From an uncultured Gammaproteobacteria bacterium (GTDB lineage Bacteria; Patescibacteriota; Microgenomatia; UBA8517), in assembly GCA_964488535.1 (NCBI GenBank), contig CAZAUT010000006.1:1-52572 (forward strand): 52,572 bases of DNA, read 5' to 3'. The position numbers and the translations under genes were made by a program. Below, in pieces: positions 32,438 through 51,129 of this stretch (positions within the stretch are counted from its first letter, which is position 1; the number at the start of each line of letters is the position of its first letter). The notes under the pieces are model-generated. The model saw only the letters and a program-made list of their open reading frames with translations. It made no database searches and had not been told where the DNA came from.

Positions 32438-32438
32438 T

Positions 32439-37440: not shown

Positions 37441-37453
37441 TCCAAAATTCATC

Positions 37454-37481
37454 TTGACAAACTATAGGAACATATTACAAT
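37454..37481 (+). promoter_or_regulatory. Sigma70-type promoter TTGACA-N16-TACAAT, 8 nt before the ATG
   Basis: The -35 is at 37454-37459 and the -10 at 37476-37481, with the ATG at 37490. This implies a leaderless or near-leaderless mRNA. Confidence 0.55.
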
Positions 37482-37489
37482 ACGCACGT

Positions 37490-37723
37490 ATGGCTGAAGT
37501 GATAAATTATCACCATTGCAATTGTGGTATGGCTATTCCTCGCCAGACCGACAAAGGTTGGGTTATGGGATGTCAGGTTAGACAGTTAGAAGACCAACTC
37601 GGACATAGACCTACAGCAAAAGAGATTCTTGAGTTGAAAAGGTCGGATGGGGGTTTTATTATCAGACTTACGAGCATACCCGTCGACAAATGTCCTAATG
37701 AATACAAACCTTTGAGATTTTAA
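37490..37723 (+). CDS. Small Cys/His-containing hypothetical protein
   Basis: 77 aa from MAEVINYHHCNCGMAIPRQ, ending ..PVDKCPNEYKPLRF. The start is chosen by promoter geometry, since the tracked TTG start is itself the -35 box. Confidence 0.5.
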   Translation: MAEVINYHHCNCGMAIPRQTDKGWVMGCQVRQLEDQLGHRPTAKEILELKRSDGGFIIRLTSIPVDKCPNEYKPLRF

Positions 37724-37887
37724 AATACAAACCGCTAAGTTTTTATATTTCATTCGCAGATCGAAAAGCAAAATACTGCACCTTCGGACAGGAAAGGGTT
37801 TGCTCTTCAAATGATTGCTAATCACTACACTTCGGATGAGAATATCGGGAGACACTACCCTGCAATTTAAACAGCCTATATTAAATA

Positions 37888-37915
37888 TTGACATTTATAC
37901 AATTAGAAATATAAT
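37888..37915 (+). promoter_or_regulatory. Consensus sigma70 promoter TTGACA-N16-TATAAT, 8 nt before the ATG
   Basis: Both hexamers are perfect, at 37888-37893 and 37910-37915. The ATG is at 37924. Confidence 0.6.
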
Positions 37916-37923
37916 ATCCGCTA

Positions 37924-38379
37924 ATGGGAATTACACCAAGACCAATGTGCTCCACACAGCATTTGCGTCTGACCAATAGTGAAGGATCTAGAATAGATTA
38001 CGGTTGCTTGGATTGGGTATTTCGGGAAGGCTTTGACATGGTAGCTCTTGTAAAGGCATTCGTCTCCCAACTTGAAAATGACAAACAGCAGAGGACACAA
38101 TATCAGCGCATCCAAAAAGCTGTCTCAACCCTTGCTTTCGAACATTACATGTTTGATGTTAATGAGCATGGCAAGCAATTTAATGATACAGAGTTAATAA
38201 GAGAAAAAGAGGATCTAATGAATAAAGTTCTCAAGGCTTATGGCATTCAACGTTCGGAGTACAGAATTAAGTTCGTCAGACAATGCCCTCCACGATTAGG
38301 TTCAGGCGATGAACCAATAAATGTTACAAAAGATTTTGCCACAATTGGTATTAGAATTGACAATCCAGCTAGGAAATAA
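37924..38379 (+). CDS. Hypothetical protein
   Basis: 151-aa ORF directly behind a consensus promoter. It has no recognisable motif. Confidence 0.6.
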   Translation: MGITPRPMCSTQHLRLTNSEGSRIDYGCLDWVFREGFDMVALVKAFVSQLENDKQQRTQYQRIQKAVSTLAFEHYMFDVNEHGKQFNDTELIREKEDLMNKVLKAYGIQRSEYRIKFVRQCPPRLGSGDEPINVTKDFATIGIRIDNPARK

Positions 38380-38392
38380 CTTGATTCAAAAT

Positions 38393-39505
38393 TTAAAGCC
38401 CAATTCTTTGAACAGAAACAACTTCTTCAAAAAAGGCTTTGTCCCCCGGACAGAGATAGCTTATGTCACCTCCCGAGGGGTCTTTTACAAAACGATTTTT
38501 CACACATCCTCCGTTACATATTCTCAAAAAATGACATTCCTTACAGCTGGGAGGCAGAGAAGTTTTCTTTGACCGTCCAAATTCCGTCTGCAATTTGGCG
38601 GACAGCATGTCCCCAACGCTCGCCTCCTGAATATTCCCAAGTATGTGACCAGAATCTACAAAAAAGTCGCAGGAATAAAAACCGCCGTCCGGCATTAGTA
38701 CGGGAAAATTACCGCAGGTTTCAGCATGGATACAACTTGATGCAGGAAAACCCTCTGCCTGCTTCCTAACATTGTTGATATTTGATACCTGCATACCACC
38801 ACCCATAAATCCAAGATTATTAAGCCATTTGTGATAAACACCTATCAAAAAACTACCCCACTTGTGCGGATCAACCGATACATCTTTTTTTAATTTGCCT
38901 TGACCATCTCTCTCAACAACCGGAATAAATGTCAAAATTGGAACTCCAAGGTTTTTAAAATAATCAAATATAATCTCCGGATGTTCCTGATTTGCAGGAT
39001 TAACGGTACAAACCACACCATAATCGATATTATGACTTCCGAGCAAATTTAAAGATCCTTCCAACTTTTCCTCATCCGACGTACCGTTACCGTGACGCAG
39101 ACGGGAACAATCTCCGGGCCCGTCACAGCTGACACCGACCTCAACTCCGTGTGTTTTGAAAAGTCTGCACCAGTCTTCATCAATCAACAGACCATTCGTC
39201 TGAACAACAAAGTGAACCACTTTACCTGATCGGCTTGCTTCTCTTTCAGCAAAGTCAATTGTATTTGCGAAGTACTCAGTCCCCATAAGAAGAGGCTCTC
39301 CTCCTTGGAAAAACAATTCGATTGCTTGTCCAGGTTGGCCATTAATCGATTCTGAAATTGCGCGATTCATTATATCCCGAGACATTAATTTCGGCTGTCG
39401 TCTGGCTTCCGTAGTGTCTTTTATGAAGCAATATTCGCAGCCTCTGTTACATCTTGAGCCTACAGGTTTGATGTTTATAGTAAAACGATTTTCAATTCTT
39501 TCCAT
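38393..39505 (-). CDS. Radical SAM / SPASM-domain enzyme, anSME-like (copy 2)
   Basis: The radical SAM motif is KPVGSRCNRGCEYCF (CxxxCxxC), with GGEPLL. The SPASM part reads SCIHAETCG...DGGFYSCDFF...LGNI...CKECHFLRICNGGCVKNR. Confidence 0.85.
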   Translation of the reverse strand: MERIENRFTINIKPVGSRCNRGCEYCFIKDTTEARRQPKLMSRDIMNRAISESINGQPGQAIELFFQGGEPLLMGTEYFANTIDFAEREASRSGKVVHFVVQTNGLLIDEDWCRLFKTHGVEVGVSCDGPGDCSRLRHGNGTSDEEKLEGSLNLLGSHNIDYGVVCTVNPANQEHPEIIFDYFKNLGVPILTFIPVVERDGQGKLKKDVSVDPHKWGSFLIGVYHKWLNNLGFMGGGMQVSNINNVRKQAEGFPASSCIHAETCGNFPVLMPDGGFYSCDFFVDSGHILGNIQEASVGDMLSAKLQTEFGRSKKTSLPPSCKECHFLRICNGGCVKNRFVKDPSGGDISYLCPGDKAFFEEVVSVQRIGL

Positions 39506-39518
39506 AAGTTTATTTAAT

Positions 39519-40619
39519 TTATAAGTTGATGTATCTGTAAAAAATACGGTAACTTGGGCAAAGGTAGTTTAAACCATTTGTGGAAATCCTATCCTTCGGA
39601 CATCCGCCATGACACATCTCCAATACGTCACAACTGAGACACTGCTGTGGTAAGCTTGACTTCATTTTTGCAAACGATTTTTGTTTTTGGGATTCCATCA
39701 ATTCCGGCAAGCTTTGTCCGTGTTGATTTATGTTTCCCAACCGCCAATTTGCAGATACATAATAATCACAAGGATAGACATCTCCCGTACGTTCGAGTAC
39801 AGGTTCCATTCCGCACGTTTCCGACTGCACACACGAGTCTGTAGGTTCTCCACGAGAAGGCAGTACAGCATCGGAAATATTTGAAACGAAAATCCCCTTT
39901 AAGAAATCTTTATTCCTGAAATATTCATCCGCAACGGTACACAAGAAACTTCCAAAACCATCCTCCGACACAGAATGTCCCATATTTCCATTATTATCCT
40001 GTGTGACAATCGGGATAAAAGTAATATTTTTTGCCTTCAGAGTATCTGTGAAATACCTGTACACTTTTTTAGGAGAATGCTCATTTAAATCATGAACACT
40101 GCATGTAACCGCCCAGTCCGTTTTCGAACCATTAAGCATTTCTGCGGCCTTTTCAACCCTTTTTATCGTTGGATCACCATTTCGATCCAAACGATAGCCG
40201 TTCAAACCCTCCGGCCCATCACAGCTGAGACCTATATGGGCATTATTGCGTGTAAAAAATTCGCACCATCTTTCATCAATCAACGATCCGTTGGTTTGAA
40301 ACCAAAGCACCTTTTCTCTATCCGGAGCATGTTCTGAAGCAAACTGCATCACTTTTTCATAAAAATCCAGTCCTCTCAAAAGAGGTTCACCTCCCTGAAA
40401 AAAAAACATGAGAGGCTTTCTTGGGCTTGTTAATTGCACCAGCTGTTTTACATATCTTTCAGCCGTTTCTAGCCCCATACCCCGCGTGTTCGAAGAATGG
40501 GATTCTATATTGCCTTTATAAAAACAGTATTTACAACCTCCTTCACAATCCGAAAGTCTTGTGAAGTTGCATTGTGAGCCTACAGGTTTAACAATGACAA
40601 GGTGTTCTTTGTCAGACAT
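39519..40619 (-). CDS. Radical SAM / SPASM-domain enzyme, anSME-like (copy 1)
   Basis: The motif region KPVGSQCNFTRLSDCEGGCKYCFY has CxxxCxxC preceded by an 8-residue insert after an extra Cys, with GGEPLL. The SPASM part reads SCVQSETCG...GDVYPCDYY...LGNI...CLSCDVLEMCHGGCPKDR. Confidence 0.85.
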   Translation of the reverse strand: MSDKEHLVIVKPVGSQCNFTRLSDCEGGCKYCFYKGNIESHSSNTRGMGLETAERYVKQLVQLTSPRKPLMFFFQGGEPLLRGLDFYEKVMQFASEHAPDREKVLWFQTNGSLIDERWCEFFTRNNAHIGLSCDGPEGLNGYRLDRNGDPTIKRVEKAAEMLNGSKTDWAVTCSVHDLNEHSPKKVYRYFTDTLKAKNITFIPIVTQDNNGNMGHSVSEDGFGSFLCTVADEYFRNKDFLKGIFVSNISDAVLPSRGEPTDSCVQSETCGMEPVLERTGDVYPCDYYVSANWRLGNINQHGQSLPELMESQKQKSFAKMKSSLPQQCLSCDVLEMCHGGCPKDRISTNGLNYLCPSYRIFYRYINL

Positions 40620-40629
40620 GTTTCAGTTT

Positions 40630-41442
40630 CTATTTTTTCGATAATATTTCATACGCCAGATTTACCTTTTTTGCTTTTTCGTCTCTTTCGGGATCAATCA
40701 TTTTACTGGCTCTTCCATAATCTGGATGCAATTGCATCATTTTATTTCTGTAATATTTCTTCAATTCTTCAGGAGTACATCCGACAGGAGCACCGAGTGT
40801 TTCATATAGCGATTGACGAGGATGAGTATCTAACGGTTTTCTATTATTCAAGGAAAGACCGGAATGTTCATAACCCGACCTGCCATTAACTGCCTGTTCT
40901 TTGTCAATTGTATTTTGTGGAAACACATCCCGCCATGTAGCCGTCAACTCATCTATCGGCTGAATGTCAATGTTTCCGACTAATATTCTTTGTTGTATCT
41001 TTAAAAGATATCCTGATTGAGACAGCCACCGTGCCACATTTTTACCGCTTTTAATATCAAATGCCAAAACCAACAAATCTCCCAAACCATACCTGCCTTC
41101 AGAGGCATTTCTTAGTGCAGTGTTCGGATAATCCGGACGGGTAGGGATTTGCATCTGATTCCGATTGCATGGTCTTGAACACATAGCTTTCCCCAAGCAC
41201 CTTTTACCATAAAGCACAACCTTTCCTTCCTCATCCACCCCCCAGCCGGAGGAGCCATCTCCACCGGAATTTGTAATACTGACGAAACGTCCCGAAATCG
41301 GACATTTTATACCAATACTTTTAAAGCCTTCCCTGGCGATGACAGCTACACAACCGGAAACTCTACCGTCACCCAGATCGGAGCAGTTAGTAATCAAATT
41401 AAACCTTGGTTCAGGAAATTCTTCCTTGCGTTGACCGGCCAT
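40630..41442 (-). CDS. Protein with a C-terminal J domain (DnaJ-like) and a Cys-containing N-terminal domain of unknown function
   Basis: The last roughly 60 aa are SLYETLGAPVGCTPEELKKYYRNKMMQLHPDYG...KKVNLAYEILSKK, with an HPD tripeptide. The N-terminal 200 aa match no motif I recognise. Confidence 0.75.
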   Translation of the reverse strand: MAGQRKEEFPEPRFNLITNCSDLGDGRVSGCVAVIAREGFKSIGIKCPISGRFVSITNSGGDGSSGWGVDEEGKVVLYGKRCLGKAMCSRPCNRNQMQIPTRPDYPNTALRNASEGRYGLGDLLVLAFDIKSGKNVARWLSQSGYLLKIQQRILVGNIDIQPIDELTATWRDVFPQNTIDKEQAVNGRSGYEHSGLSLNNRKPLDTHPRQSLYETLGAPVGCTPEELKKYYRNKMMQLHPDYGRASKMIDPERDEKAKKVNLAYEILSKK

Positions 41443-41454
41443 AATCTTTGTGGT

Positions 41455-41483
41455 ATTTTACCTTATAGTAATATTCAATTCAA
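41455..41483 (-). promoter_or_regulatory. Sigma70-type promoter TTGAAT-N17-TAAAAT for the J-domain/rSAM operon, 12 nt before the ATG
   Basis: Read on the minus strand, the -10 is at 41455-41460 and the -35 at 41478-41483. Confidence 0.5.
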
Positions 41484-41551: not shown

Positions 41552-41579
41552 TTGACAAACATACAACATGATATACAAT
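41552..41579 (+). promoter_or_regulatory. Sigma70-type promoter TTGACA-N16-TACAAT, 11 nt before the ATG
   Basis: The hexamers are the same as at 37454. The ATG is at 41591. Confidence 0.55.
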
Positions 41580-41590
41580 ACACCCATAAT

Positions 41591-42139
41591 ATGACTTATT
41601 CAAGACCGGAAGCGTGGAGTCGAGATTTTGGGTTGGATCAACAAAATTTGACGATTGCCATGGCTGCAGAAAAAGCCTATAGAAATGGCGAATATGAAGA
41701 TATTGTGGAGGCAGTAATACATTTCGGTCTTGAAATACGAGGCGAGGAATTTAAAAATACCGCTTTATATCAAGATCATCAGGCTAAAAAAAAAGAAGAA
41801 GAAGAAAGACGGGCAAAAGAAAGGGGAAAGGCAAAGATACAAGCCACGAGGTGTAAAACCGCTATTCAGCTGAATGTAGGCGGAGTTGTATGCAGGTCAC
41901 CGGCTGAAGCGCTTCAAACCCAAAGAGAAATACAAGAAAGAAAGAGATTGGTAAGGGGATTGCCGGGGCCAAGACCCGCCGAGCTCCCGCTAGGTGAAGG
42001 AATTTATGGACTTGAAAGCGGTGGACTTCAAGGGGCAGACAATCGCTCCAACTGTCAAGCCCTTTATATTGCTATGCAAATTCTTTCACGCAATAGAATC
42101 GTACCTGATCCAAAGAGAATTCCTCAGAAAAACAAATAG
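41591..42139 (+). CDS. Hypothetical protein with a charged KE-rich central helix
   Basis: 182 aa from MTYSRPEAWSRDFG. The start is set by promoter geometry. Confidence 0.55.
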   Translation: MTYSRPEAWSRDFGLDQQNLTIAMAAEKAYRNGEYEDIVEAVIHFGLEIRGEEFKNTALYQDHQAKKKEEEERRAKERGKAKIQATRCKTAIQLNVGGVVCRSPAEALQTQREIQERKRLVRGLPGPRPAELPLGEGIYGLESGGLQGADNRSNCQALYIAMQILSRNRIVPDPKRIPQKNK

Positions 42140-42323: not shown

Positions 42324-42950
42324 CTACGGTCTAATTACGTATATTAAACCACCATCGTATCCTTTGATCCCAAGGTGATCAAGGTTCATATAACGCCCCT
42401 CTCCCCCAAGATTAACCATTAGTGTCACCGGCTTTTTAGGTCGCACCCTGATACTTGACGGATAAGGACAATTTTCTGCTCGCAGGCATGTAACGGAGCC
42501 CAATATACCAAGACATTGAGGGACTGTTGCTTTCGAATCTCTTGTTTTAACAAAGCGCTTCTCAGTCGAACTATAATCTACTCTAGTGGAAACCTGTTTG
42601 TTTACATTAACATAAAGATCTTCAAATCTATTAATCCATTGGTTAGTTGAAGGATAGGCCACATTACCATTGGTGATAAAAAGATCTGTACTCGAACAAG
42701 GATTTCTCTCGACAACAGCTTCTACGTCATACTTTTCTCTCGCCAAAGAACAAGTTATCTTGTGCGGAATTGGCTGTGGAGGCAGTTTATACCCAAATAA
42801 AGTTTTCTCAATTCTTTCGCCTACTTCATCCCAGAGGGTTTTATCGAGGCGTGTGCAGTCAATGGCTACACAATACTTTTCATCAAAATTAGACAAGTTA
42901 CAGGGACAGTTTCTGACTACAAATACGCCAAGTGGTGTACGTTCTGCCAT
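42324..42950 (-). CDS. Hypothetical Cys-rich protein
   Basis: 208 aa containing NCPCNLSNFDEKYCVAIDC and CLRAENCPYP. The upstream minus-strand reading is TTGAAA-N18-TAATAT, 13 nt before the ATG. Confidence 0.6.
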   Translation of the reverse strand: MAERTPLGVFVVRNCPCNLSNFDEKYCVAIDCTRLDKTLWDEVGERIEKTLFGYKLPPQPIPHKITCSLAREKYDVEAVVERNPCSSTDLFITNGNVAYPSTNQWINRFEDLYVNVNKQVSTRVDYSSTEKRFVKTRDSKATVPQCLGILGSVTCLRAENCPYPSSIRVRPKKPVTLMVNLGGEGRYMNLDHLGIKGYDGGLIYVIRP

Positions 42951-43338
42951 ATCTTATAGAATGATATTACTAACTTTTTTCCACAATTTTCAACATGACA
43001 GTAAAACTTGAATTTTTCATTCTTAAGATATATTATAGACCTATAATGTCCTGAGGTACAGAATCAAAAACATTTTAGAGACGCTGCAGCGCTTATAGAC
43101 ACATATGTTGTTGCGGGTCAAAAACCCGACCCGAGATTAGTAAATCTATGGGTAGCTGAACAACTTCCAGACATAGACCAACTTCAGATTCCAACTCTGG
43201 ATTAATATACTTATATTTTTTGAAAGTCAGAGAGCGGGTTCCCGAAATATTTTCAAAACATGTGGCCGGTTCAAGCTTGTTTGGTGAAAAAGAGTAATTT
43301 CAATGTGAGAATGGAATTCGTTTATAACGAATAATATG

Positions 43339-44031: not shown

Positions 44032-44041
44032 AGTAATGCGT

Positions 44042-44069
44042 ATTATATACTCAAATACCCGTAAATCAA
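44042..44069 (-). promoter_or_regulatory. Sigma70-type promoter TTGATT-N16-TATAAT, 10 nt before the ATG at 44031
   Basis: Read on the minus strand. This supports the trimmed start of the 43339 gene. Confidence 0.55.
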
Positions 44070-44264: not shown

Positions 44265-44275
44265 ACGCAATCAAT

Positions 44276-44644
44276 ATGGAAATAATAAAGATAGGAAACA
44301 CGGTAAATGTTAGATGTCCTTTGCTTGCAACCGGCAGAACAATAGATGACAGTACGGAAGAACTTTGCCTAGGATATCTTAGGTGCCCTCATTTCAGAGA
44401 CGGAAAATGCAATATTGCCACAGTATCAACAGTAAAAAGAAGCAAACCCACAAGACCATTGGGTTGCCAGTTAAACAATGATCCGTACTGGGAAAATCGT
44501 CCAAACGGGGTATGCAGGGTAACAGGATGCCCGTATTTTGGCAAAATCTGCCAAATTTCCAAGCAACCGATAGGGCGTGACGCTTTTCCTACAGATATGG
44601 TTGCAGTAGCTGCGCCTCCAAAACCTTCAATCTTCAAACCTTAA
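44276..44644 (+). CDS. Small Cys-motif protein (two C-x5-CP-[HY]-F-x3/4-C units)
   Basis: 122 aa containing LCLGYLRCPHFRDGKC and GVCRVTGCPYFGKIC. The C-terminal half aligns with the 46318 protein. Its stop overlaps the abiEii stop. Confidence 0.6.
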   Translation: MEIIKIGNTVNVRCPLLATGRTIDDSTEELCLGYLRCPHFRDGKCNIATVSTVKRSKPTRPLGCQLNNDPYWENRPNGVCRVTGCPYFGKICQISKQPIGRDAFPTDMVAVAAPPKPSIFKP

Positions 44645-45408
44645 TCAATCTTAATATTTTTGATCTTTTCCAACAGTAATCTTTTGATATGTACAACAAC
44701 TCCCCTTTCCCGTCTTGGTAAAAATCTTCTAACGTCCGAGTCCAAATCCGTAATATTCCAAAGATTAATTTTTTTTATCAATTCATCTTTTTTGAATTTT
44801 TGATTGTAATATTTTAAATTTTTTCCGATAAAATTTTTGTCAAAAACGTCATATTTTGATAAAATGTACCACAAGTCATAAATATCCCTTCCCTTTTCCC
44901 TATTCATGACAGCTCTGATTTTCTCCGAAAATATTTCTTTTATTGACAAGTGTTTAACAACTACCACAGTTGACACCGGAAGTTCAGAAACAATTGGGTC
45001 CGATTCAGGATCAAGCACGTTTTCACTCTTGGAAAAATCAAGTTTAATTGTCAAATTCTGCGGACTGACATCTGTTTTCAGATAAATTTTAAAGCTGTGT
45101 CCGTGCAGAGTTTTTAAATCTTTTAAACTTATATCTTTATATTCGTACGCCAACGTTTTAATCACTTTTGAAAGCAGACTCTTAATTTCATTTTCCGACA
45201 GATCGGTCGTAAAATCCAAATCCTCGGAATACCTGCTTGAACCGTAAATAAGTCTTAAACACGTTCCTCCTTTAAAAAAGGTGCCTATCGCACGATCTTC
45301 GGAATAAAACGCATTTAAAAAACTAATCTGGACGATTTCCCGCAAAAGCGAGAAGTTGTCAATATCATATTTAATTGATAAACGTGTTAATGTGTTGGTG
45401 TCTATCAT
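44641..45408 (-). CDS. abiEii: AbiEii/AbiGii-family nucleotidyltransferase toxin (type IV TA)
   Basis: 255 aa. The motif FKGGTCLRLIYGSSRYSEDLDF is the family signature. There is a 4-nt ATGA overlap with the upstream antitoxin gene. Confidence 0.8.
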   Translation of the reverse strand: MIDTNTLTRLSIKYDIDNFSLLREIVQISFLNAFYSEDRAIGTFFKGGTCLRLIYGSSRYSEDLDFTTDLSENEIKSLLSKVIKTLAYEYKDISLKDLKTLHGHSFKIYLKTDVSPQNLTIKLDFSKSENVLDPESDPIVSELPVSTVVVVKHLSIKEIFSEKIRAVMNREKGRDIYDLWYILSKYDVFDKNFIGKNLKYYNQKFKKDELIKKINLWNITDLDSDVRRFLPRRERGVVVHIKRLLLEKIKNIKID

Positions 45409-45986
45409 ATTTTCTTTAATATCCGTTTGATTGCTTTAATATTGAAGACTTTTATATAACTATTCAACAGCTTTCGATTGATGATTGAAAAATCAAGCTC
45501 AGACATATCGATTTTCCGTAATCCCTTTGTTTGTAAATAGATAATATCAAGAAGCGCTTTTTCCGGTTTCGCGATTAAAAAATCGTCCGTTTTCTCATAT
45601 CCCCAAAAATATTTCGCGTCCATATGCTGATATTCAAAATTATATATGGAGTCAATTTCAACTGACTTTTTTAATGTTACCGATGTAACAATATAGGGAA
45701 ACTGAGGCAAAACACCCCAAAAATTCAGAGCGCTTTCAAAACTAATATATGACGGGGATACAACAAAATTTGCCATAGAAAAAGTGCTATAACTTGAGTT
45801 TTCCAATACATATTTTCCTTTTACAATACGCCTGATTATCCCATTTTTTTCAAGTCTTTGAATTATTTTATATATATTGTTGCGATTGTTCTCATCCATT
45901 AAACTTGCTATTTCGGTTCTTGTAAAAAATTTCAGCTTCTTCTCCTGAAGTTTTTTGATTATATCTAATTGTTTTATAGATGCCAT
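45405..45986 (-). CDS. abiEi: AbiEi-family antitoxin / transcriptional regulator
   Basis: 193 aa with an N-terminal wHTH (FFTRTEIASLMDENNRNNIYKIIQRLEKNGIIRRIVKGKYV). It is translationally coupled to abiEii. Confidence 0.75.
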   Translation of the reverse strand: MASIKQLDIIKKLQEKKLKFFTRTEIASLMDENNRNNIYKIIQRLEKNGIIRRIVKGKYVLENSSYSTFSMANFVVSPSYISFESALNFWGVLPQFPYIVTSVTLKKSVEIDSIYNFEYQHMDAKYFWGYEKTDDFLIAKPEKALLDIIYLQTKGLRKIDMSELDFSIINRKLLNSYIKVFNIKAIKRILKKI

Positions 45987-45996
45987 ATTTGGTATA

Positions 45997-46025
45997 ATTA
46001 TATATTAATCCTATCATCGTGTCAA
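45997..46025 (-). promoter_or_regulatory. Consensus sigma70 promoter TTGACA-N17-TATAAT for abiEi-abiEii, 10 nt before the ATG
   Basis: Read on the minus strand, the -10 is at 45997-46002 and the -35 at 46020-46025. Both hexamers are perfect. Confidence 0.6.
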
Positions 46026-46275: not shown

Positions 46276-46305
46276 TTGACAAATACCGCGCAGATGTCTT
46301 ACAAT
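46276..46305 (+). promoter_or_regulatory. Sigma70-type promoter TTGACA-N18-TACAAT, 12 nt before the ATG at 46318
   Basis: The hexamers were read directly. Confidence 0.5.
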
Positions 46306-46317
46306 AAGCCCCAAAAT

Positions 46318-46518
46318 ATGAGACGCAAAACATACGAATTCGCAGAAGAGTGCATTTTAAATGAGGCATGGCGGAAACCGGGAAAATTTCCAGGGGTGTG
46401 TAGGGTCCAAACCTGTCCATTATATCAACAAGGCTGCAGATATTCTGAAAATCCGATAAGGGACCGCGTTTCGTTTCCTTACCAGGACACCGTGCCCAGT
46501 GAAGTAGCAGCAAAATAA
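46318..46518 (+). CDS. Small Cys-motif protein (paralogue of the C-terminal half of 44276..44644)
   Basis: 66 aa, MRRKTYEFAEECILNEAWRKPGKFPGVCRVQTCPLYQQGCRYSENPIRDRVSFPYQDTV. It aligns with CQLNNDPYWENRPNGVCRVTGCPYFGKICQISKQPIGRDAFPTDMV. Confidence 0.6.
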   Translation: MRRKTYEFAEECILNEAWRKPGKFPGVCRVQTCPLYQQGCRYSENPIRDRVSFPYQDTVPSEVAAK

Positions 46519-46677
46519 TATTCCGACCGTGTAGCGAAAGTATCATTTTCTTCGTAATTGTCATAGAAATTTCATTCAACTAACAAAATAATTTAATAGT
46601 TATATCGATTGAAAAAAGCGGTTATAAATTGCGTTTGACTTCGTCCTCCCTTCAGTGGTATATTATGGGACAAAATT

Positions 46678-47787
46678 ATGAATACAGAAATAATTCTCCC
46701 ATCACAAGAATCTGCAAGGCAACTTAACATTGCACCTGATTATGCTGAGTTTATCCAACATAGAAACAGTGAATATTCGGATGCCTTAAGATCTTTGGGT
46801 GAAAAATTCAAACGAATGGGGTTTGGAAGTGGTCCGGGAATGGACATTAGAATTAGAGCCGATGTAATTTCACAAACATACATGAACATTCTTCAGACAA
46901 TTAGGGAAGGCAGTAATGTATCACTTGCTTTAATTAAAACAATGAATCAATTAGGTGGCGGAAGTGGAACGACTGTCGAAGATCGCTTTGATTTGGCGAT
47001 AAGTGCATCCAGAACTTTGCTTCATTCTATGGGTGGTTCTGGAGGTACGTTTTCACTTTTCAGACGCGATAATTCTTTAAATCTAACCGCTGGGTTGGGA
47101 ATTTATGATCCCTACAAAGGCCCATTAAAAGTTATAGTCGACGGTGCTCCAAAAACAAAAAGACTTCTTCAGGAATTAAAAGCTGAAACTCATAAAACCG
47201 GTTCTTCAGCCGCTAGACTTTCTCGAAAGCTTGATCACAGTTTAAATTCTTTGTCTAATCAAGCCCAGGGAGCGGATGAAAGTATGGGTTATATGACTAA
47301 ATTTCAGGATGACCGAGATAATGCCACCGACAATTTGGATACAATTTACACTGCTGCACAAAACAAAGAACCTTTAAGAGGCCCTGTTGATGCTTTTGCA
47401 TTCAGTGCCAGAAACGCTGCACAGAGCAGTCAAGGTGCCATAAAATCTAACAAGGACCTGGGTAAAGTGTTGCAGGAAGCTGCAGCATCCACCTCAATAC
47501 TAAGTCAAATCGCGGCACTTGTACAAGCACATAGAAGTGCTGAGATCTCGCGCGGTGTTGAAGCACTGGTTCATACCTCAGCTCCTTTTTGGCTTTTTGA
47601 AACGATGGCACACGAAACAGAAAGGGCGCAATTTGTAACCACACATATATTATTAAAAATGCTTGCATACATGCGACACGGAGAAGAGAACATTCCAAGT
47701 GAAATCATGGAAACAGGAGGCCGACTTCTATCGCCACGGGGTTTGAAAGATGAGATCATTGAATCAACTTGTATTGATGCTGAATAA
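46678..47787 (+). CDS. Hypothetical protein, Gly/Ser-rich and helical
   Basis: 369-aa ORF behind TTGACT-N18-TATATT. It has no recognisable motif. Confidence 0.65.
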   Translation: MNTEIILPSQESARQLNIAPDYAEFIQHRNSEYSDALRSLGEKFKRMGFGSGPGMDIRIRADVISQTYMNILQTIREGSNVSLALIKTMNQLGGGSGTTVEDRFDLAISASRTLLHSMGGSGGTFSLFRRDNSLNLTAGLGIYDPYKGPLKVIVDGAPKTKRLLQELKAETHKTGSSAARLSRKLDHSLNSLSNQAQGADESMGYMTKFQDDRDNATDNLDTIYTAAQNKEPLRGPVDAFAFSARNAAQSSQGAIKSNKDLGKVLQEAAASTSILSQIAALVQAHRSAEISRGVEALVHTSAPFWLFETMAHETERAQFVTTHILLKMLAYMRHGEENIPSEIMETGGRLLSPRGLKDEIIESTCIDAE

Positions 47788-47835
47788 GATCACTAATTCC
47801 TAATTATGGAAACAAGGTAAGAAAAATTAATTTCC

Positions 47836-48561
47836 ATGTCTGCAGAAAATACAGCTGCAAGTTTTTTCCGACAAGCTCCCCCACTTTGTGAACAGAGGTT
47901 TGATTATCTTTTTGCCGATGATTTCAGATTAAGAATAACTGCAGGAGATGTTGCAAAAACGGGAGGAGAAATTGCTTGGGAAAACAGAGGGTATATAAAA
48001 GGAGCTGCTTTGGGAATCAGTACAATTTTATTAAGCGGCTGCGGATCAAACTCATCGGAAGCTGTTAATATCAATTTGACACCAGCGGAAGGTTGGGGAA
48101 TAGGAAGCGGATTATTTTGGGCACTTGAAGAGGTATTTGAAAAAGATAAACACCCAAGTGTGTTAGGCAAAGTATTAGCAATTCCAATAAAATTTATCGG
48201 TGGGTATTTGCTTGGACGTGGACTAAGTACAAACTTGCAAAATATAAACGACTGGGGCCTTCTTGAAAACTTAACACCAGCAGTAGAAACTCTTGGTGGT
48301 GCAGTTATTGTGGCAAAAGAAACAAGCATCAAAGCGTTAATAGCCACGTTTTTTCATGCCACAGCAAATGCCGGAAAAACAGCTGTAAATAAAATTACCG
48401 CACCCGGAAGACAACACCGTGAAGATTTACTAAACGAAGCGTTGGGAATAATAAGCAGTAGGGGCTGTACATACCGGCGTGCAGTTACAACTCTAAAAAG
48501 AATCAATATGACGGACGAAGAAATTATAACTACCTTAAGAGCTCATAGGTGGAATGTTTAG
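47836..48561 (+). CDS. Hypothetical membrane protein or lipoprotein
   Basis: 241 aa with hydrophobic segments, including GAALGISTILLSGCGSNSS (lipobox-like). Confidence 0.6.
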   Translation: MSAENTAASFFRQAPPLCEQRFDYLFADDFRLRITAGDVAKTGGEIAWENRGYIKGAALGISTILLSGCGSNSSEAVNINLTPAEGWGIGSGLFWALEEVFEKDKHPSVLGKVLAIPIKFIGGYLLGRGLSTNLQNINDWGLLENLTPAVETLGGAVIVAKETSIKALIATFFHATANAGKTAVNKITAPGRQHREDLLNEALGIISSRGCTYRRAVTTLKRINMTDEEIITTLRAHRWNV

Positions 48562-48723
48562 ACTGAAATCAAACAAACATTCATACTCACTCAAATTGAT
48601 CAGCAATGGAAAGCAAATATATAAAAATTAAACTCTTGTTTTTTAACTTATAGCATTAGGCGTCTTCATTTCCCATGCCGAGACAAGTAAGAAATTTCGA
48701 AGATTAGACGTAACAAAGATCAA

Positions 48724-49143
48724 ATGAAAGAATTACAAACACGCACCTACGAATTGAACCCCTTGCGGAGATCACCAATCCTCGCAAGGATACAAACAAT
48801 TACTGCTGCTTCTGCAGTATCGTTGACAACTTCGGGTTGCAAAGCCGACGAAATTGCAAAAACATGGGGAGATTTTAAAAATTTCGCATGTGACACATGT
48901 GTCGTTGGCAGTGCTTTTTTTACTATACTCTATCTTTCAACAATTCTACCCGGGAAAATTAATGAGACGAGAGCCATGCTCGACCTTCGGGATAATCCCA
49001 ATATAAATGATGAAGAATTTAAAAAATTGTCAAACCGCTACCATCATGGCGATGATGAATTGTTCTTAGAATACTTGAGGACTTACGAACCTAGTATACC
49101 TATGAAAATTATTCTCTCGATGCTGGGCGATGAAGAAGTTTAA
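48724..49143 (+). CDS. Hypothetical membrane protein or lipoprotein
   Basis: 139 aa containing AASAVSLTTSGCKADE and one further TM helix. Confidence 0.55.
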   Translation: MKELQTRTYELNPLRRSPILARIQTITAASAVSLTTSGCKADEIAKTWGDFKNFACDTCVVGSAFFTILYLSTILPGKINETRAMLDLRDNPNINDEEFKKLSNRYHHGDDELFLEYLRTYEPSIPMKIILSMLGDEEV

Positions 49144-49221: not shown

Positions 49222-49249
49222 TTGAATTATATAAAAATACATATATAAT
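49222..49249 (+). promoter_or_regulatory. Sigma70-type promoter TTGAAT-N16-TATAAT upstream of 49273
   Basis: The hexamers were read directly. The leader is 23 nt. Confidence 0.45.
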
Positions 49250-49272
49250 ATATAAACATTATAGGTCTTTCT

Positions 49273-49905
49273 ATGAGAAAAATTGAGGCTACTTTCATTT
49301 CTGCAGAAGATGTCATCAGAAAACTTTTAGCCGGAAATACATATATGAGAGGCGAATGCAGGGGGCGTTCCGGTCTTTTACCCGGAATACAATGCGCTCT
49401 GGATGCTGAACCAGAAAAAGAAGAAGAACCTGCGCTGACGCCGCGTGAACAGAAAGCATTCGATAAAGAAAATAGAAGAATTCAAAAGGAAAAAGAAAAG
49501 GAACGGAAAAAACATCCTAATCTAGTGGTAATTGATTTTAGCGGAATAGACGAACGACATGAAAATAATATGCATTTATTACTTCGACCTTCATCCGGGA
49601 AAACATGTAAAAATTGTCATATTTCGATAAATGGCCACGCAAGAATAGTTTCAACGAATAGGGTGATTGCTGAAGAATGTGGTTCAACAGTAATGCATCC
49701 AAACACCCCTATTACAATAGAGGACGATCAAAAAGGTTTAAGAGTTACCGAAGCGATATTTACAGAATCACCGCATTCCTCTTCACAGACTCGGATTCAG
49801 AAAAAAATTGTAGTTAGTCAAAACCTTGATGATGGCAGATGGACAGGAACTTCGACCACTGAAGTTCATCGAATCGCTGGTACACCGGGAAAAAGACGAG
49901 GTTGA
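49273..49905 (+). CDS. Hypothetical protein with a KE-rich stretch and a CxxC pair
   Basis: 210-aa ORF containing GKTCKNCHISINGH. It has no recognisable family motif. Confidence 0.55.
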   Translation: MRKIEATFISAEDVIRKLLAGNTYMRGECRGRSGLLPGIQCALDAEPEKEEEPALTPREQKAFDKENRRIQKEKEKERKKHPNLVVIDFSGIDERHENNMHLLLRPSSGKTCKNCHISINGHARIVSTNRVIAEECGSTVMHPNTPITIEDDQKGLRVTEAIFTESPHSSSQTRIQKKIVVSQNLDDGRWTGTSTTEVHRIAGTPGKRRG

Positions 49906-49956: not shown

Positions 49957-49965
49957 TGATATAAT
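49957..49965 (+). promoter_or_regulatory. Extended -10 element TGaTATAAT, 15 nt before the ATG at 49981
   Basis: The sequence ggTGaTATAAT was read directly. No good -35 is present, as expected for an extended -10 promoter. Confidence 0.45.
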
Positions 49966-49980
49966 CTTCTTTTATCATTT

Positions 49981-50391
49981 ATGCCTGAAAAGCCTGAACG
50001 GAATATTGAAACAATTGATATTGAAAAGGTGGTCAGAAATATAGTTAATGGTCTTCCATTAAATTCTCCTTGTCTTGTGCGGGAAGGAATATATCCAAAT
50101 ATTTTCTGTCCGTATGAAGGAATACCATATCCAAGATGTGTTGTTTGTCCGTTTGCGAAAAATACTTTTATAAGACTTGAAAACCGATTAAATACCGCAA
50201 GTTTGACAACCGAAGATCCGGATGGTTGGTTTTCTGTCCGTAGAATATCAAGTATTCCCGCGGGAAAAACCTTTGGGAATGACCGATGGGCTTCGTATAA
50301 GTTAAATCCCGGCGGCAACTGGCTTCAGGCAACAATTATTCAAGGCGGTCTTCACGGAAGAATGAATGCCAGCGTGAGACAGATTAAGTAG
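49981..50391 (+). CDS. Hypothetical Cys-motif protein
   Basis: 136 aa containing SPCLVREGIYPNIFCPYEGIPYPRCVVCPFAKN. Its last 11 codons are duplicated at 50969-51002. Confidence 0.55.
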   Translation: MPEKPERNIETIDIEKVVRNIVNGLPLNSPCLVREGIYPNIFCPYEGIPYPRCVVCPFAKNTFIRLENRLNTASLTTEDPDGWFSVRRISSIPAGKTFGNDRWASYKLNPGGNWLQATIIQGGLHGRMNASVRQIK

Positions 50392-50394
50392 AAA
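50361..50394. repeat. Direct repeat copy 1 (3' end of 49981..50391)
   Basis: The sequence aatgaatgccagcgtgagacagattaagtagaaa compares with 50969-51002, aataagtgccggcgtgagacagattaagtagaaa. That is 34 bp with 3 mismatches, and the last 23 bp are identical. Confidence 0.9.
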
Positions 50395-50429
50395 TGAAAG
50401 GTCGTCTATTCCGGACAATTTAACTTTCT

Positions 50430-50858
50430 TCAAAACGTAAGGGTTCCTTTTAAGGCATCTCTACCCAAAACGGCAGAATATCTTTTCCCCAATGACCGAT
50501 ATTCTGTTGCACCGGAACTCAAACATCCTTCTTCTACCAGCTCTTTTTCGTCCTCCTGAAGGTAATAATGGTAAAGATAAAAAACTCCCCTATCCGTTCC
50601 GATCTTTTCAATTGCAACACGCAATCTCCCCTCTTCTCTCTTTCGTTCGTTATACCCCAAATCATACATGACACTATTCATCAAGTGAAAATCCACCGTT
50701 CCTTCCAAGATACCAAGTTTTTGTTGGATTTCCGCCTTTGTTAATACATTACCGCACAAACAGCCTACCAGTCTGCTTTCCATCTCCGTTTTTTCTGTTT
50801 CGGAAAAAACGCTATTTCGCGTTCTTCTGTTATCTCTTACTTGTTCACTGGTGGTCAT
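50430..50858 (-). CDS. Hypothetical protein, possibly a wHTH regulator; sole gene of a repeat-flanked cassette
   Basis: 142-aa ORF. The upstream minus-strand reading is TTGAAT-N17-TAATAT, 13 nt before the ATG. Confidence 0.55.
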   Translation of the reverse strand: MTTSEQVRDNRRTRNSVFSETEKTEMESRLVGCLCGNVLTKAEIQQKLGILEGTVDFHLMNSVMYDLGYNERKREEGRLRVAIEKIGTDRGVFYLYHYYLQEDEKELVEEGCLSSGATEYRSLGKRYSAVLGRDALKGTLTF

Positions 50859-50968
50859 AAAATATTGATCTTATATTAATACATTATGCTTATTTATTCA
50901 ATCCAATGTAATATTTGTACCCAGTTTATAAATGAACCAAACATTTCGTTCTTGTACCATAATCTTAA

Positions 50969-51002
50969 AATAAGTGCCGGCGTGAGACAGATTAAGTAGA
51001 AA
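50969..51002. repeat. Direct repeat copy 2 (orphan copy of the 3' end of 49981..50391)
   Basis: See copy 1. It reads ..VRQIK-stop in frame but has no gene body upstream. Confidence 0.9.
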
Positions 51003-51003
51003 A

Positions 51004-51023
51004 GGCAGGCTGCCTGCTGTTTT
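51004..51023 (+). terminator. Weak intrinsic-terminator-like hairpin (ggcagg-ctg-cctgc + tgtttt)
   Basis: A short GC stem followed by a T-run lies directly after repeat copy 2. It is plausibly the original terminator of the 49981 gene. Confidence 0.3.
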
Positions 51024-51029
51024 CCTAAT

Positions 51030-51050
51030 TTACATCCGTTTCGGTGCTTG
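51030..51050. repeat. Degenerate duplicate of the argS 3' end
   Basis: The sequence ttacatccgtttcggtgcttg compares with 51130-51150, ttacattcgttccggcgcttg (18/21 identical). The minus strand reads QAPKRM-stop against the genuine QAPERM-stop. Confidence 0.7.
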
Positions 51051-51129
51051 TCCAACACAATTTTCGCATTCGGCTTCTTGGAACTATTCGTTGTCGCCTC
51101 GTGCCAAAATTAGGATGGACTGCGCGCCT

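What the first reader, a model, noticed from the sequence alone, without database searches (positions are those of the whole stretch)
37443..51129. 13.7-kb ORFan island with one near-consensus promoter per gene and essentially leaderless starts
Between the M16 peptidase and argS lie 17 ORFs. Only the two rSAM enzymes, the J domain and AbiEi/AbiEii are recognisable. The word-stutter arrays stop at the island edge (37440).

Instead, transcription units carry sigma70-like promoters at a fixed short distance from the ATG, with no Shine-Dalgarno sequence. The set is:
- TTGACA-16-TACAAT at 37454 and 41552
- TTGACA-16-TATAAT at 37888
- TTGACA-17-TATAAT at 46025 (minus strand)
- TTGATT-16-TATAAT at 44069 (minus strand)
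- TTGACA-18-TACAAT at 46276
- TTGAAT-17-TAAAAT at 41483 (minus strand)
- TTGAAT-16-TATAAT at 49222
- TGaTATAAT at 49957

All of these except the 49222 promoter, whose leader is 23 nt, lie 8-15 nt from the ATG.

The different architecture, an embedded TA module, 3'-end duplications at the right border (50361/50969 and 51030/51130) and a location next to a tRNA-synthetase gene point to horizontally acquired DNA. This could be a plasmid or phage remnant, or a defence or host-interaction island. No integrase is present in the window.
Basis: partly seen in the sequence, partly recalled or inferred. Interest (0 to 1): 0.7.

Follow-up and report, generated by a model that had tools for sequence, protein, structure and literature searches.

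The report
ORFan gene island in CPR bacterium
A 14-kb block of about 18 mostly unrecognisable genes sits between two housekeeping genes that are neighbours in related Patescibacteria, and its "promoter directly before the ATG" layout is real but is this lineage's normal way of expressing genes, not a mark of foreign DNA.

Summary
The -10 box ends 8-15 nt (once 23 nt) before an ATG, and no island gene has a Shine-Dalgarno motif (0/18). Near-consensus promoters (at least 11/12) number 5 against 0.46 in shuffles. "Promoter + ATG + ORF" sites number 7 against 0.1.

- **Host:** it is a Microgenomates-like Patescibacterium (CPR).
- **Position:** in 34 relatives argS lies just upstream of the M16 peptidase gene, 11 times less than 100 nt away. 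The 13,987-nt segment therefore interrupts a conserved gene pair. The same junction holds unrelated inserts of up to 8 kb in other relatives, so it is a plasticity hotspot.
- **Architecture:** the leaderless layout is native. It precedes core genes in the flanks and in relatives (29 sites against 1.7 expected).
- **Composition:** only mildly deviant (GC3 0.335 vs 0.399).
- **Age:** the closest complete relative carries distant homologues of two island genes next to its own M16 gene.
- **Mobility:** no integrase, phage or plasmid signal was found.
- **Recognisable content:** an AbiEi/AbiEii pair, and a J-domain plus two anSME-like radical-SAM operon.
- **Everything else:** ORFan, including against billions of proteins.

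Verdict: an old, fast-evolving accessory island. It is moderately interesting.

The parts
37143..37453 (.). Left border. This is the M16 upstream region, full of 7-13-nt tandem 'stutter' words. The last array ends at 37430.
37454..37723 (+). Promoter TTGACA-16-TACAAT, then 8 nt, then g37490 (ATG 37490; 77 aa, 4 Cys). Its last 23 nt are duplicated in tandem at 37724-37746.
37888..38379 (+). Perfect-consensus promoter TTGACA-16-TATAAT, then 8 nt, then g37924 (151 aa ORFan). It has a sub-threshold Nif11 hit (E 0.058).
38393..41483 (-). Three-gene operon. Promoter TTGAAT-17-TAAAAT (41483-41455), then 12 nt, then three genes separated by gaps of 10 and 13 nt with no SD:
- g40630: 270 aa, unknown Cys-containing N-terminal domain plus a C-terminal J domain with an HPD motif.
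- rSAM/SPASM g39519: 366 aa.
- rSAM/SPASM g38393: 370 aa.

Both rSAM enzymes are anSME-like.
41552..42139 (+). Promoter TTGACA-16-TACAAT, then 11 nt, then g41591 (182 aa ORFan).
42324..42993 (-). Promoter TTGAAA-18-TAATAT, then 13 nt, then g42324 (208 aa, 9 Cys, two Cys-Pro motifs; ORFan).
43339..44069 (-). Promoter TTGATT-16-TATAAT, then 10 nt, then g43339 (ATG 44031; 230 aa, no Cys). No true homologue in 1.84 billion representative proteins.
44235..44644 (+). Promoter TTGCAT-18-TAAAAT, then 11 nt, then g44276 (122 aa, 8 Cys, two C-x4-5-C-P-x-[FY]-x2-3-C motifs). It is a paralogue of g46318.
44641..46025 (-). Perfect-consensus promoter TTGACA-17-TATAAT, then 10 nt, then AbiEi (45405-45986) overlapping AbiEii (44641-45408) by 4 nt. 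GC is 0.30-0.33, the lowest in the window.
46276..46518 (+). Promoter TTGACA-18-TACAAT, then 12 nt, then g46318 (ATG 46318; 66 aa, Cys-rich, GVCRVxxCPxY motif).
46635..49143 (+). Promoter TTGACT-18-TATATT, then 13 nt, then three genes:
- g46678 (369 aa).
- g47836 (241 aa, membrane or lipobox segment).
- g48724 (139 aa, lipobox-like plus a TM segment; no promoter of its own was found).

The first two have distant homologues next to M16 in relative L001.
49222..49905 (+). Promoter TTGAAT-16-TATAAT with a 23-nt leader, then g49273 (210 aa). Its N-terminus is paralogous to that of g49981.
49957..50401 (+). Extended -10 box TGaTATAAT, then 15 nt, then g49981 (136 aa, Cys-Pro motifs). Its last 31 nt plus 10 nt form copy 1 of a 41-nt direct repeat.
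50402..50968 (-). Single-gene insertion of about 570 nt. It carries g50430 (142 aa) with its own promoter, TTGAAT-17-TAATAT (50901-50873). It is bracketed by the 41-nt repeat.
50969..51050 (.). Relic convergent junction. It runs: old 3' end of g49981 (50969-51009), a bidirectional hairpin terminator (51003-51018), then the old 3' end of argS (51030-51050, encoding ..GQAPKRM*).
51130..52560 (-). argS, the right flank. It is cut by the contig end and contains host-type stutter arrays.
35871..37142 (-). M16 peptidase gene, the left flank. In relatives it sits immediately downstream of argS.

Best explanation
The segment 37143-51129 is a chromosomal accessory-gene island in a Microgenomates-like Patescibacterium (CPR). 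It occupies a recombination-prone junction between argS and the M16 peptidase gene, which are co-directional neighbours in relatives.

Build-up (inferred). It grew piecemeal and over a long time:
- Some genes are old enough to be shared, barely recognisably, with a relative whose M16 is 66% identical.
- Some arose by local duplication and divergence: the two rSAM enzymes, g44276/g46318 and g49273/g49981.
- Some are later additions: the low-GC AbiE module, and the roughly 570-nt single-gene insertion carrying g50430.

Expression. The 18 genes form about 13 transcription units that point both ways. Each unit begins with a sigma-70-type promoter whose -10 box ends 8-15 nt before an ATG. The mRNAs therefore start at, or a few nt before, the start codon and are translated without a Shine-Dalgarno sequence. 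This inference rests on promoter geometry, not on mapped 5' ends. The layout is the host lineage's own. The island looks special only because it packs many single-gene units, each with an unusually good -35 box.

Function. It is a mosaic rather than one machine:
- An AbiEi/AbiEii type IV toxin-antitoxin or abortive-infection pair (shown by homology).
- An operon of a J-domain protein with two anSME-like radical-SAM/SPASM enzymes. These probably oxidise or cross-link Cys or Ser residues of protein substrates (inferred). No sulfatase and no C-x-P-x-R motif is present in the window. The island's Cys-Pro-motif small proteins are candidate substrates (speculative).
- A membrane-anchored pair and other lineage-specific proteins of unknown role.
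For: Host and synteny:
- M16 best hits are Patescibacteria and Microgenomates.
- argS lies upstream of M16 on the same strand in 34 loci. Gaps are under 100 nt in 11, 100-1000 nt in 9 and at least 1 kb in 14, with a maximum of 8.2 kb. The window's gap is 13,987 nt.
- The fillers differ between relatives: DUF1003, 23S_rRNA_IVP/bAvd, a histidine kinase, Wzy_C, MerR and ORFans.

Partial antiquity:
- g47836 matches L001 6242-7069 (E 4e-7; phmmer 4.8e-9).
- The adjacent g46678 matches the adjacent L001 7228-8418 (E 1e-3 over 347 aa). Both carry the same TTGACT/TATATT promoter hexamers.

Native architecture:
- Leaderless sites occur before flank core genes at 11544 and 14801.
- In relatives they occur before M16, argS, leuS and an ATPase.
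- There are 29 such sites against 1.7 expected in L001-L020.
- SD-like motifs occur at 0/18 island genes and 3/15 flank genes.
- Island and flank promoters share the same sequence after the -10 box.

Real genes: 17 of 18 ORFs score best in their own frame under a codon model trained on the flanks.

Mild compositional deviation: GC 0.387 vs 0.414, GC3 0.335 vs 0.399, and tetranucleotide correlation within the host range.

In-situ paralogues.

Stepwise insertion.

Content.

No mobile-element signal.
Against: - Homology with L001 rests on two weak pairwise matches. The two genes sit in a different relative orientation there, and L001 has no argS within 10 kb.
- The closest relative by M16 (L086, 77%) has only 1.3 kb of upstream sequence, and that shows an unrelated ORFan.
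- The lower GC3, the poorer codon fit and the near-absence of host stutter arrays would also fit a fairly recent import from another low-GC CPR genome.
- No transcription start site has been mapped.
- The functions of 13 ORFans are unknown.
- The link between the rSAM enzymes and the Cys-Pro proteins is unsupported beyond co-location and a dipeptide enrichment (11 CP vs 3.6 expected, P = 6e-4). L001's Cys-rich genes have no rSAM gene within 10 kb.
Confidence: 0.6

Rival explanations
1. Recent horizontal acquisition of a single mobile element. A degraded integrative element, prophage or plasmid integrated at the 3' end of argS and has since lost its integrase.
For: - The segment interrupts a conserved gene pair.
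- The last 21 nt of argS are duplicated (18/21), as happens at att sites in the 3' ends of genes.
- GC3 is lower and the codon fit weaker.
- Host stutter arrays are almost absent.
- A toxin-antitoxin module is present.
- The rSAM enzymes' best matches, at 40% identity or less, are non-CPR anSMEs.
Against: - There is no integrase, transposase, replication, conjugation or virion gene.
- There is no DNA or protein match in the phage, plasmid or viral-contig collections.
- The two argS-end copies lie 79 nt apart and do not bracket the island.
- The promoters are host-type, including the sequence after the -10 box.
- Two genes are shared with L001 at the same locus.
- The tetranucleotide profile lies within the host range.
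- Internal GC heterogeneity (AbiE) and a nested single-gene insertion argue for several events rather than one.
Confidence: 0.15
2. The island is at heart a protein- or peptide-maturation (RiPP-like) cluster. The two anSME-like rSAM/SPASM enzymes, helped by the J-domain protein, modify the Cys-Pro-motif small proteins encoded around them.
For: - Two SPASM maturase-type enzymes lie in one operon with a J protein.
- There is no sulfatase or C-x-P-x-R motif in the window.
- Six island proteins carry Cys-Pro motifs, with CP enriched (11 vs 3.6, P = 6e-4).
- g44276 and g46318 share a C-x4-C-P-x-[FY]-x2-C motif.
- g37924, convergent with the rSAM operon, has a sub-threshold Nif11-leader hit (E 0.058).
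Against: - The candidate substrates are 66-208 aa and have no recognisable leader/core layout.
- There is no protease or exporter.
- The Nif11 hit is below threshold.
- No comparable context was found around rSAM homologues elsewhere.
- L001 has Cys-rich genes but no rSAM gene within 10 kb.
- A sulfatase could be encoded elsewhere in the genome.
Confidence: 0.12
3. An array of orphan immunity or accessory genes serving the two Rhs/SpvB polymorphic-toxin modules 3-22 kb upstream, similar to an acquired interbacterial defence cluster.
For: - Two paralogous SpvB-like plus Rhs modules lie at 15112-34357.
- Immunity genes are typically small, diverse, ORFan and individually promoted.
- The Rhs block and the island are the two parts of the window with few stutter arrays.
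Against: - No island protein matches any Pfam immunity or toxin family.
- None is paralogous to the small ORFs that follow the Rhs genes.
- The island is separated from the Rhs block by two core genes whose synteny is conserved.
Confidence: 0.08
4. Mostly non-coding or decaying DNA, in which the ORFs and promoter-like hexamers are chance products of AT-rich sequence.
For: Most ORFs have no homologue in databases of billions of proteins. AlphaFold single-sequence models are of low confidence.
Against: - 17/18 ORFs are best in their own frame under the host codon model.
- GC1 exceeds GC3 throughout.
- Promoter + ATG + ORF coincidences number 7 against 0.1 expected.
- Two ORFans are conserved in L001.
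Confidence: 0.03

Closest known systems
Genomic islands / regions of genome plasticity at conserved chromosomal hotspots
   Same: Accessory genes, mostly of unknown function, are inserted between genes that are syntenic in relatives. Different relatives carry different cargo at the same junction. A toxin-antitoxin module is embedded, and composition deviates slightly.
   Different: There is no integrase, no tRNA target and no island-bracketing direct repeat. Part of the cargo is old and shared with a distant relative. The host is a reduced-genome CPR bacterium.
Leaderless transcription units of the bacterial type: a -10 box (TANNNT) about 6-12 nt upstream of the start codon, as described in Actinobacteria and Deinococcus-Thermus (my own knowledge: Zheng et al. 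2011; Cortes et al. 2013, the latter cited in PMC12641261)
   Same: The -10 box sits at a fixed short distance from an ATG. There is no SD. The ATG is the only start codon at unit heads.
   Different: Here the layout occurs in a Patescibacterium. My four literature searches found no paper describing it in this group. The island promoters also have near-consensus -35 boxes. Most spacings are 8-13 nt, which implies leaders of 1-6 nt rather than exactly 0.
AbiE (AbiEi/AbiEii) type IV toxin-antitoxin / abortive infection system
   Same: Both components are present in the canonical order, overlap by 4 nt and are preceded by a strong promoter.
   Different: Nothing unusual, apart from the lowest GC in the window and a leaderless start.
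Anaerobic sulfatase-maturing enzymes (anSME, TIGR03942) and SPASM-domain peptide maturases
   Same: Both enzymes align end to end with the anSME model (300.7 and 320.1 bits). They have CX3CX2C and SPASM cysteines and the Cys-Asp pair (SCDFF / PCDYY).
   Different: - Both scores are below the family's 349.45-bit cut-off.
- They are shorter than their best homologues, with no SEC-C tail.
- They form a tandem pair that is only 35% identical.
- They share an operon with a J-domain protein.
- There is no sulfatase or sulfatase motif in 52 kb.

Membership tests
Horizontally acquired genomic island | Interrupts gene order that is conserved in relatives | tested here: met
   argS lies directly upstream of M16 in 34 loci, 11 of them with a gap under 100 nt. 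The window's gap is 13,987 nt.
Horizontally acquired genomic island | Composition distinct from the host | tested here: inconclusive
   - GC3 is 0.335 vs 0.399 (p = 1e-4).
- Codon-model fit is 0.11 vs 0.19 bits per codon.
- Stutter arrays run at 0.14/kb vs 2.7/kb in core DNA.
- However, tetranucleotide correlation (0.88-0.94) lies within the host range (0.86-0.95).
- The Rhs block is also poor in stutter arrays.
Horizontally acquired genomic island | Mobility genes (integrase, transposase) or a tRNA/att target with bracketing repeats | tested here: not met
   No such Pfam, NCBIfam or PHROGs hit, and no tRNA. The argS-end repeat copies are 79 nt apart and do not bracket the island.
Horizontally acquired genomic island | Absent from close relatives | tested here: inconclusive
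   16 of 18 genes have no counterpart in any of the 165 fetched loci (163 M16-anchored relatives plus L081, L084 and L085, fetched for rSAM context). Two genes have distant homologues next to M16 in L001.
Bacterial leaderless transcription units | A -10 box at a fixed short distance upstream of the start codon | tested here: met
   12 of about 13 unit heads have the -10 box 8-15 nt from the ATG, and one is at 23 nt. There are 7 strict sites against 0.1 expected.
Bacterial leaderless transcription units | No Shine-Dalgarno sequence; ATG start | tested here: met
   0/18 genes have GGAG, GAGG, AGGA or GGGG upstream. All 18 start with ATG.
Bacterial leaderless transcription units | The transcript 5' end coincides with the start codon | not testable with these tools
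   This needs dRNA-seq, Cappable-seq or 5'-RACE.
AbiE type IV toxin-antitoxin | An AbiEi antitoxin/regulator gene followed by an AbiEii nucleotidyltransferase toxin gene in one operon | tested here: met
   - AbiEii: Pfam 4.9e-30, PADLOC 6.9e-33.
- AbiEi: NCBIfam 2.1e-13 (below its cut-off), PADLOC 5.7e-34.
- The genes overlap by 4 nt.
Anaerobic sulfatase-maturing enzyme (TIGR03942 equivalog) | Score at or above the curated cut-off | tested here: not met
   300.7 and 320.1 bits against a cut-off of 349.45.
Anaerobic sulfatase-maturing enzyme (TIGR03942 equivalog) | A cognate sulfatase with a C/S-x-P/A-x-R motif | tested here: not met
   There is no sulfatase domain in the window. No C-x-[PA]-x-R motif occurs in any island protein. 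The rest of the genome was not available.
RiPP biosynthetic gene cluster (rSAM/SPASM type) | Maturase plus an adjacent precursor with a recognisable leader and core, usually with a protease or exporter | tested here: inconclusive
   - Maturase-type enzymes are present.
- The only leader-like signal is a Nif11 hit at E 0.058, below threshold.
- No additional short peptide gene (under 66 aa) lies behind any promoter.
- No protease or exporter is present.
Prophage or plasmid remnant | Hallmark genes, or similarity to known phages or plasmids | tested here: not met
   PHROGs gives only generic rSAM, J-domain and HTH hits. blastn against 50,697 phage and 72,556 plasmid records found no match. Three IMG/VR scans found none.
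Defence island | Several defence systems clustered together | tested here: not met
   PADLOC was run on 10 of the 18 island proteins and matched only AbiEi and AbiEii. The other eight were not scanned.

The most novel reading that the evidence does not exclude
The J-domain protein and the two divergent anSME-like radical-SAM/SPASM enzymes form a new protein-maturation system of CPR bacteria. Under this reading it installs formylglycine or thioether-type modifications on a family of leaderless-expressed, Cys-Pro-motif small proteins (g44276, g46318, g49981, g42324 and others). The island would then be a diversifying arsenal of modified effector proteins rather than a random collection of ORFans.
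Probability: 0.1. Interest if true: 0.65.

Novelty: new member of a known kind. Interest (0 to 1): 0.4.

Why it matters
- It gives a clean, statistically supported example that Microgenomates-type CPR bacteria run many genes, core and accessory alike, from sigma-70-type promoters set directly against the start codon with no Shine-Dalgarno sequence. This bears on gene calling: three of the longest ORFs here "start" at the TTG of the -35 box itself. It also bears on how translation starts in these reduced-genome organisms.
- It identifies the argS-M16 junction as a recurrent insertion hotspot across the group. That is a convenient place to look for lineage-specific cargo.
- It flags an odd operon, a J domain with two anSME-like rSAM enzymes and no sulfatase in sight, as a candidate for experimental work.
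- None of this overturns current views. ORFan-rich variable regions are expected in CPR genomes.

Tried and rejected
- **Homologue searches for ORFans.** g46678 and g44276 against 5.8 billion proteins returned only themselves. g43339 against 1.84 billion representatives returned itself plus one repeat-driven spurious hit.
- **Metagenome scan.** A g47836 + L001 profile found no relative.
- **PDB sequence searches.** g43339, g42324 and g44276 gave nothing significant.
- **AlphaFold2 single-sequence models.** g43339 had pLDDT 37.8 and g42324 had 30.1. Both are unusable, so no fold search was run.
- **Exact-protein look-ups.** M16 is not on record. g44276 recurs only on two short Logan contigs that are 100% identical to the window, so they give no information on strain variation.
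- **Context of rSAM homologues.** P0038, P0005 and P0006 sit in unrelated, non-CPR-like neighbourhoods.
- **L006 relative.** Its 349-aa gap protein is not related to g46678 or its L001 homologue.
- **L086 relative.** Its ORFan is unrelated to any island protein.
- **Rfam.** Nothing in the island at E up to 1.
- **Inserted segments at the right border.** They have no other copy in the window or in the first 80 relatives (L001-L080), so they are not a repeated MITE-like element. A tandem-duplication origin for the argS-end copy is rejected, because similarity does not extend beyond 21 nt.
- **Literature.** No paper in the library describes leaderless promoters or ORFan islands of this kind in CPR.

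Full report
**What is in the sequence**

The window is a whole 52,572-bp contig (the protein database lists its proteins on a contig of that length). Between the M16 peptidase gene (35871-37142, minus strand) and argS (51130-52560, minus strand) lie 13,987 nt. I genes there.

Three of the longest mechanical ORFs begin at a TTG, and a fourth at a GTG further upstream. In two of the three TTG cases that TTG is the first triplet of a TTGACA -35 box. In all four, the plausible start is the first ATG downstream of the -10 box. A codon model trained on the 22 flank genes puts 17 of the 18 ORFs in their annotated frame. The exception is the 66-aa g46318. The ORFs are therefore genes rather than chance reading frames.

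Pfam, NCBIfam, PHROGs and PADLOC recognise only five things:
- two radical-SAM/SPASM enzymes;
- a C-terminal J domain with an HPD motif;
- AbiEi;
- AbiEii.

**The promoters**

I found four more, in front of g46678, g44276, g42324 and g50430. Twelve of about thirteen transcription-unit heads therefore have a -10 box ending 8-15 nt before an ATG, and one has a 23-nt leader.

| Measure | Island | Expected by shuffle |
|---|---|---|
| Matches of at least 11/12 to TTGACA-N16-18-TATAAT | 5 | 0.46 (0 of 300 shuffles reach 5) |
| Promoter of at least 10/12, ATG 4-16 nt downstream, ORF of at least 50 codons | 7 | 0.10 |

The 37 kb to the left has two matches of at least 11/12, both inside genes. No island gene has an SD-like motif, including the two internal genes of the J-rSAM-rSAM operon.

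**Is the architecture foreign? No.**

Four lines of evidence show it is the host's own:
- Two core genes in the flanks, a PEGA-domain gene at 11544 and a nucleotidyltransferase at 14801, have TATAAT exactly 8 nt before their ATG.
- In related Patescibacteria fetched through the M16 protein, the same layout precedes M16 itself and a P-type ATPase (L001), argS (L003) and leuS (L005). Over the 20 most similar loci there are 29 such sites against 1.7 in shuffles.
- SD-like motifs are rare in the flanks too (3/15).
- Island and flank promoters share an A-C-[GA]-C sequence right after the -10 box.

The layout is therefore the lineage's normal mode of expression. The island is distinctive only in having many short units on alternating strands, and in the quality of its -35 boxes. 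My literature searches found no description of this mode in CPR bacteria.

**Is it an insertion? Yes, at a hotspot.**

The M16 protein's nearest genome hits are Patescibacteria and Microgenomates MAGs, at 66% identity and then about 55%. A metagenome scan added a 77% relative on a short contig.

In 34 loci argS lies upstream of M16 on the same strand:

| Gap between argS and M16 | Number of loci |
|---|---|
| Under 100 nt | 11 |
| 100-1000 nt | 9 |
| 1-8.2 kb | 14 |

The window's gap, at 14 kb, is the largest. What fills the gap differs from genome to genome: DUF1003 membrane proteins, a 23S-rRNA-IVP/bAvd-like protein, a histidine kinase, an O-antigen-ligase-like protein, a MerR-type regulator and ORFans.

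**How old is it?**

Composition is only mildly off:
- GC is 0.387 vs 0.414.
- GC3 is 0.335 vs 0.399 (Mann-Whitney p = 1e-4).
- Codon fit is 0.11 vs 0.19 bits per codon.
- Tetranucleotide correlation with the host is 0.88-0.94, within the host's own spread of 0.86-0.95.
- The AbiE pair stands out at GC 0.30-0.33.

The host's short tandem "stutter" arrays are distributed unevenly:

| Region | Arrays | Length | Density |
|---|---|---|---|
| Core DNA (including inside the argS, M16 and adk-like genes) | 52 | 19.5 kb | 2.7/kb |
| Rhs toxin block | 5 | 19.2 kb | 0.26/kb |
| Island | 2 | 13.8 kb | 0.14/kb |

This is the clearest compositional mark that the island has a history different from the core.

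Against a recent import, the closest complete relative (L001) has an ORFan block directly upstream of its M16 gene, with one leaderless promoter per gene. That block contains a 275-aa homologue of g47836 (E 4e-7; phmmer 4.8e-9). Next to it lies a 396-aa protein that aligns over 347 residues with g46678 (E 1e-3) and has the same TTGACT/TATATT promoter hexamers.

Inside the island there are three diverged paralogue pairs:
- the two rSAM enzymes (35% identity);
- g44276 and g46318;
- the N-termini of g49273 and g49981.

The picture is long residence with fast turnover, plus later additions.

**The right border**

A scan of all 40 genes for a downstream copy of their last 21 nt finds only two, g49981 (20/21) and argS (18/21). 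Shuffled controls reach 17 at most, and 15 for these two genes.

Both displaced copies abut the same 16-nt hairpin at 51003-51018, which scores as a terminator on both strands. The simplest reading has three steps:
1. g49981 and argS once converged on a shared terminator.
2. A roughly 570-nt piece carrying g50430 and its promoter then entered the end of g49981.
3. A 79-nt piece entered the end of argS. Each event regenerated the coding end.

The inserted pieces have no other copies. I cannot name the mechanism. The argS repeat does not bracket the island, so it is not evidence that the island integrated as a unit.

**What it is not**

| Search | Result |
|---|---|
| blastn against 50,697 phage and 72,556 plasmid records | no match |
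| Three ORFans against IMG/VR | no match |
| PHROGs | no hallmark gene |
| PADLOC | no defence family other than AbiE |
| Rfam at E up to 1 | no hit |
| g46678 and g44276 against 5.8 billion proteins | no homologue |
| g43339 against 1.84 billion representatives | no true homologue |

**What it may do**

- The AbiEi/AbiEii pair is a standard type IV toxin-antitoxin or abortive-infection module.
- The operon of a J-domain protein with two rSAM enzymes is unusual. Both enzymes align end to end with the anaerobic sulfatase maturase model but fall below its cut-off (300.7 and 320.1 bits against 349.45).
- Their best database matches are non-CPR anSMEs at 40% identity or less, in unrelated contexts.
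- The window has no sulfatase and no C-x-P-x-R motif.
- The island's other proteins are enriched in Cys-Pro dipeptides (11 against 3.6 expected, P = 6e-4). Several share a C-x4-5-C-P-x-[FY]-x2-3-C pattern.
- That these are the rSAM substrates is a hypothesis only. L001 has Cys-rich genes without an rSAM gene nearby.
- Two AlphaFold models of ORFans were too poor to use.

**Verdict**

It is a new member of a known kind, of moderate interest.

Noticed in passing
window 15112-34357: There are two paralogous toxin modules. Each has an SpvB-like protein (510 and 512 aa, 42% identical) and an Rhs-repeat protein (1966 and 1671 aa, 40-69% identical). RDD-family membrane proteins and small downstream ORFs accompany them; one pair of small ORFs, 21416-21904 and 32397-32921, is 54% identical. 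The block is a duplicated polymorphic-toxin locus in a CPR genome.
   Followed up: partly
window 1-15111, 34358-37430 and 51223-52572, compared with 15112-34357 and 37431-51222: Short tandem 'stutter' arrays (period 7-23 nt, 2-9 copies) occur at 2.7/kb in core DNA, including inside the argS, M16 and adk-like coding regions. They occur at only 0.26/kb in the Rhs block and 0.14/kb in the island. Relatives L001-L013 also carry them, at 0.14-1.0/kb. Their origin is unexplained.
   Followed up: partly
window 50969-51050: This is a relic convergent junction. Displaced copies of the 3' ends of g49981 and argS both abut one bidirectional terminator hairpin (51003-51018). This implies two separate small insertions that each regenerated a coding end. 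The mechanism is unknown.
   Followed up: partly
window 37701-37746: The last 23 nt of g37490, including the stop codon, are repeated in tandem immediately downstream (78% identity). This is a third, weaker case of 3'-end duplication.
   Followed up: no
window promoters at 11506, 14839, 37454, 41552, 44069, 44235 and others: The -10 boxes of leaderless promoters in both the island and the flanks are followed by A-C-[GA]-C. This may be a conserved discriminator or start element of this organism's RNA polymerase.
   Followed up: no
window 46133-46149: A perfect 7-bp GC-rich hairpin (GAGGGCTAAGAGCCCTC) lies in the divergent spacer between the AbiE promoter and the g46318 promoter. No transcript should end there, so it may be an operator or a relic.
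   Followed up: no
L004 9407-9973, L006 8886-9398 and 3009-3608, L089 108-689, L092 2363-2920, L100 2139-2663: A DUF1003 membrane-protein gene on the opposite strand recurs immediately upstream of M16, between argS and M16, in several relatives. Pfam confirmed it for L004 and L006. The others are judged by sequence resemblance only.
   Followed up: partly
L089 3068-4164: A relative with 62% M16 identity carries a different AbiEi/AbiEii pair (28% identity to the window's) on the other side of M16.
   Followed up: no
L001 8981-9778: A PaaX-like protein with a Cas2-like central domain is encoded directly upstream of M16 in the closest complete relative.
   Followed up: no
window 51130-52560: argS runs off the contig end, so it is N-terminally truncated here. 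It contains six stutter arrays within 1.35 kb of coding sequence. Near its C-terminal domain there is a low-complexity segment (..SKSEALCHSNPEPVEGEESPSLVPSAQCLVPEE..) that the L006 orthologue does not have in this form.
   Followed up: no
L081 (ENA contig_76179): The contig carrying rSAM homologue P0038 has exactly the same length (108,764 bp) as the Patescibacteria contig of L004. Its genes look non-CPR (aldehyde dehydrogenase, kumamolisin-type peptidase, beta-lactamase). This may be coincidence or a binning problem; it was not resolved.
   Followed up: no
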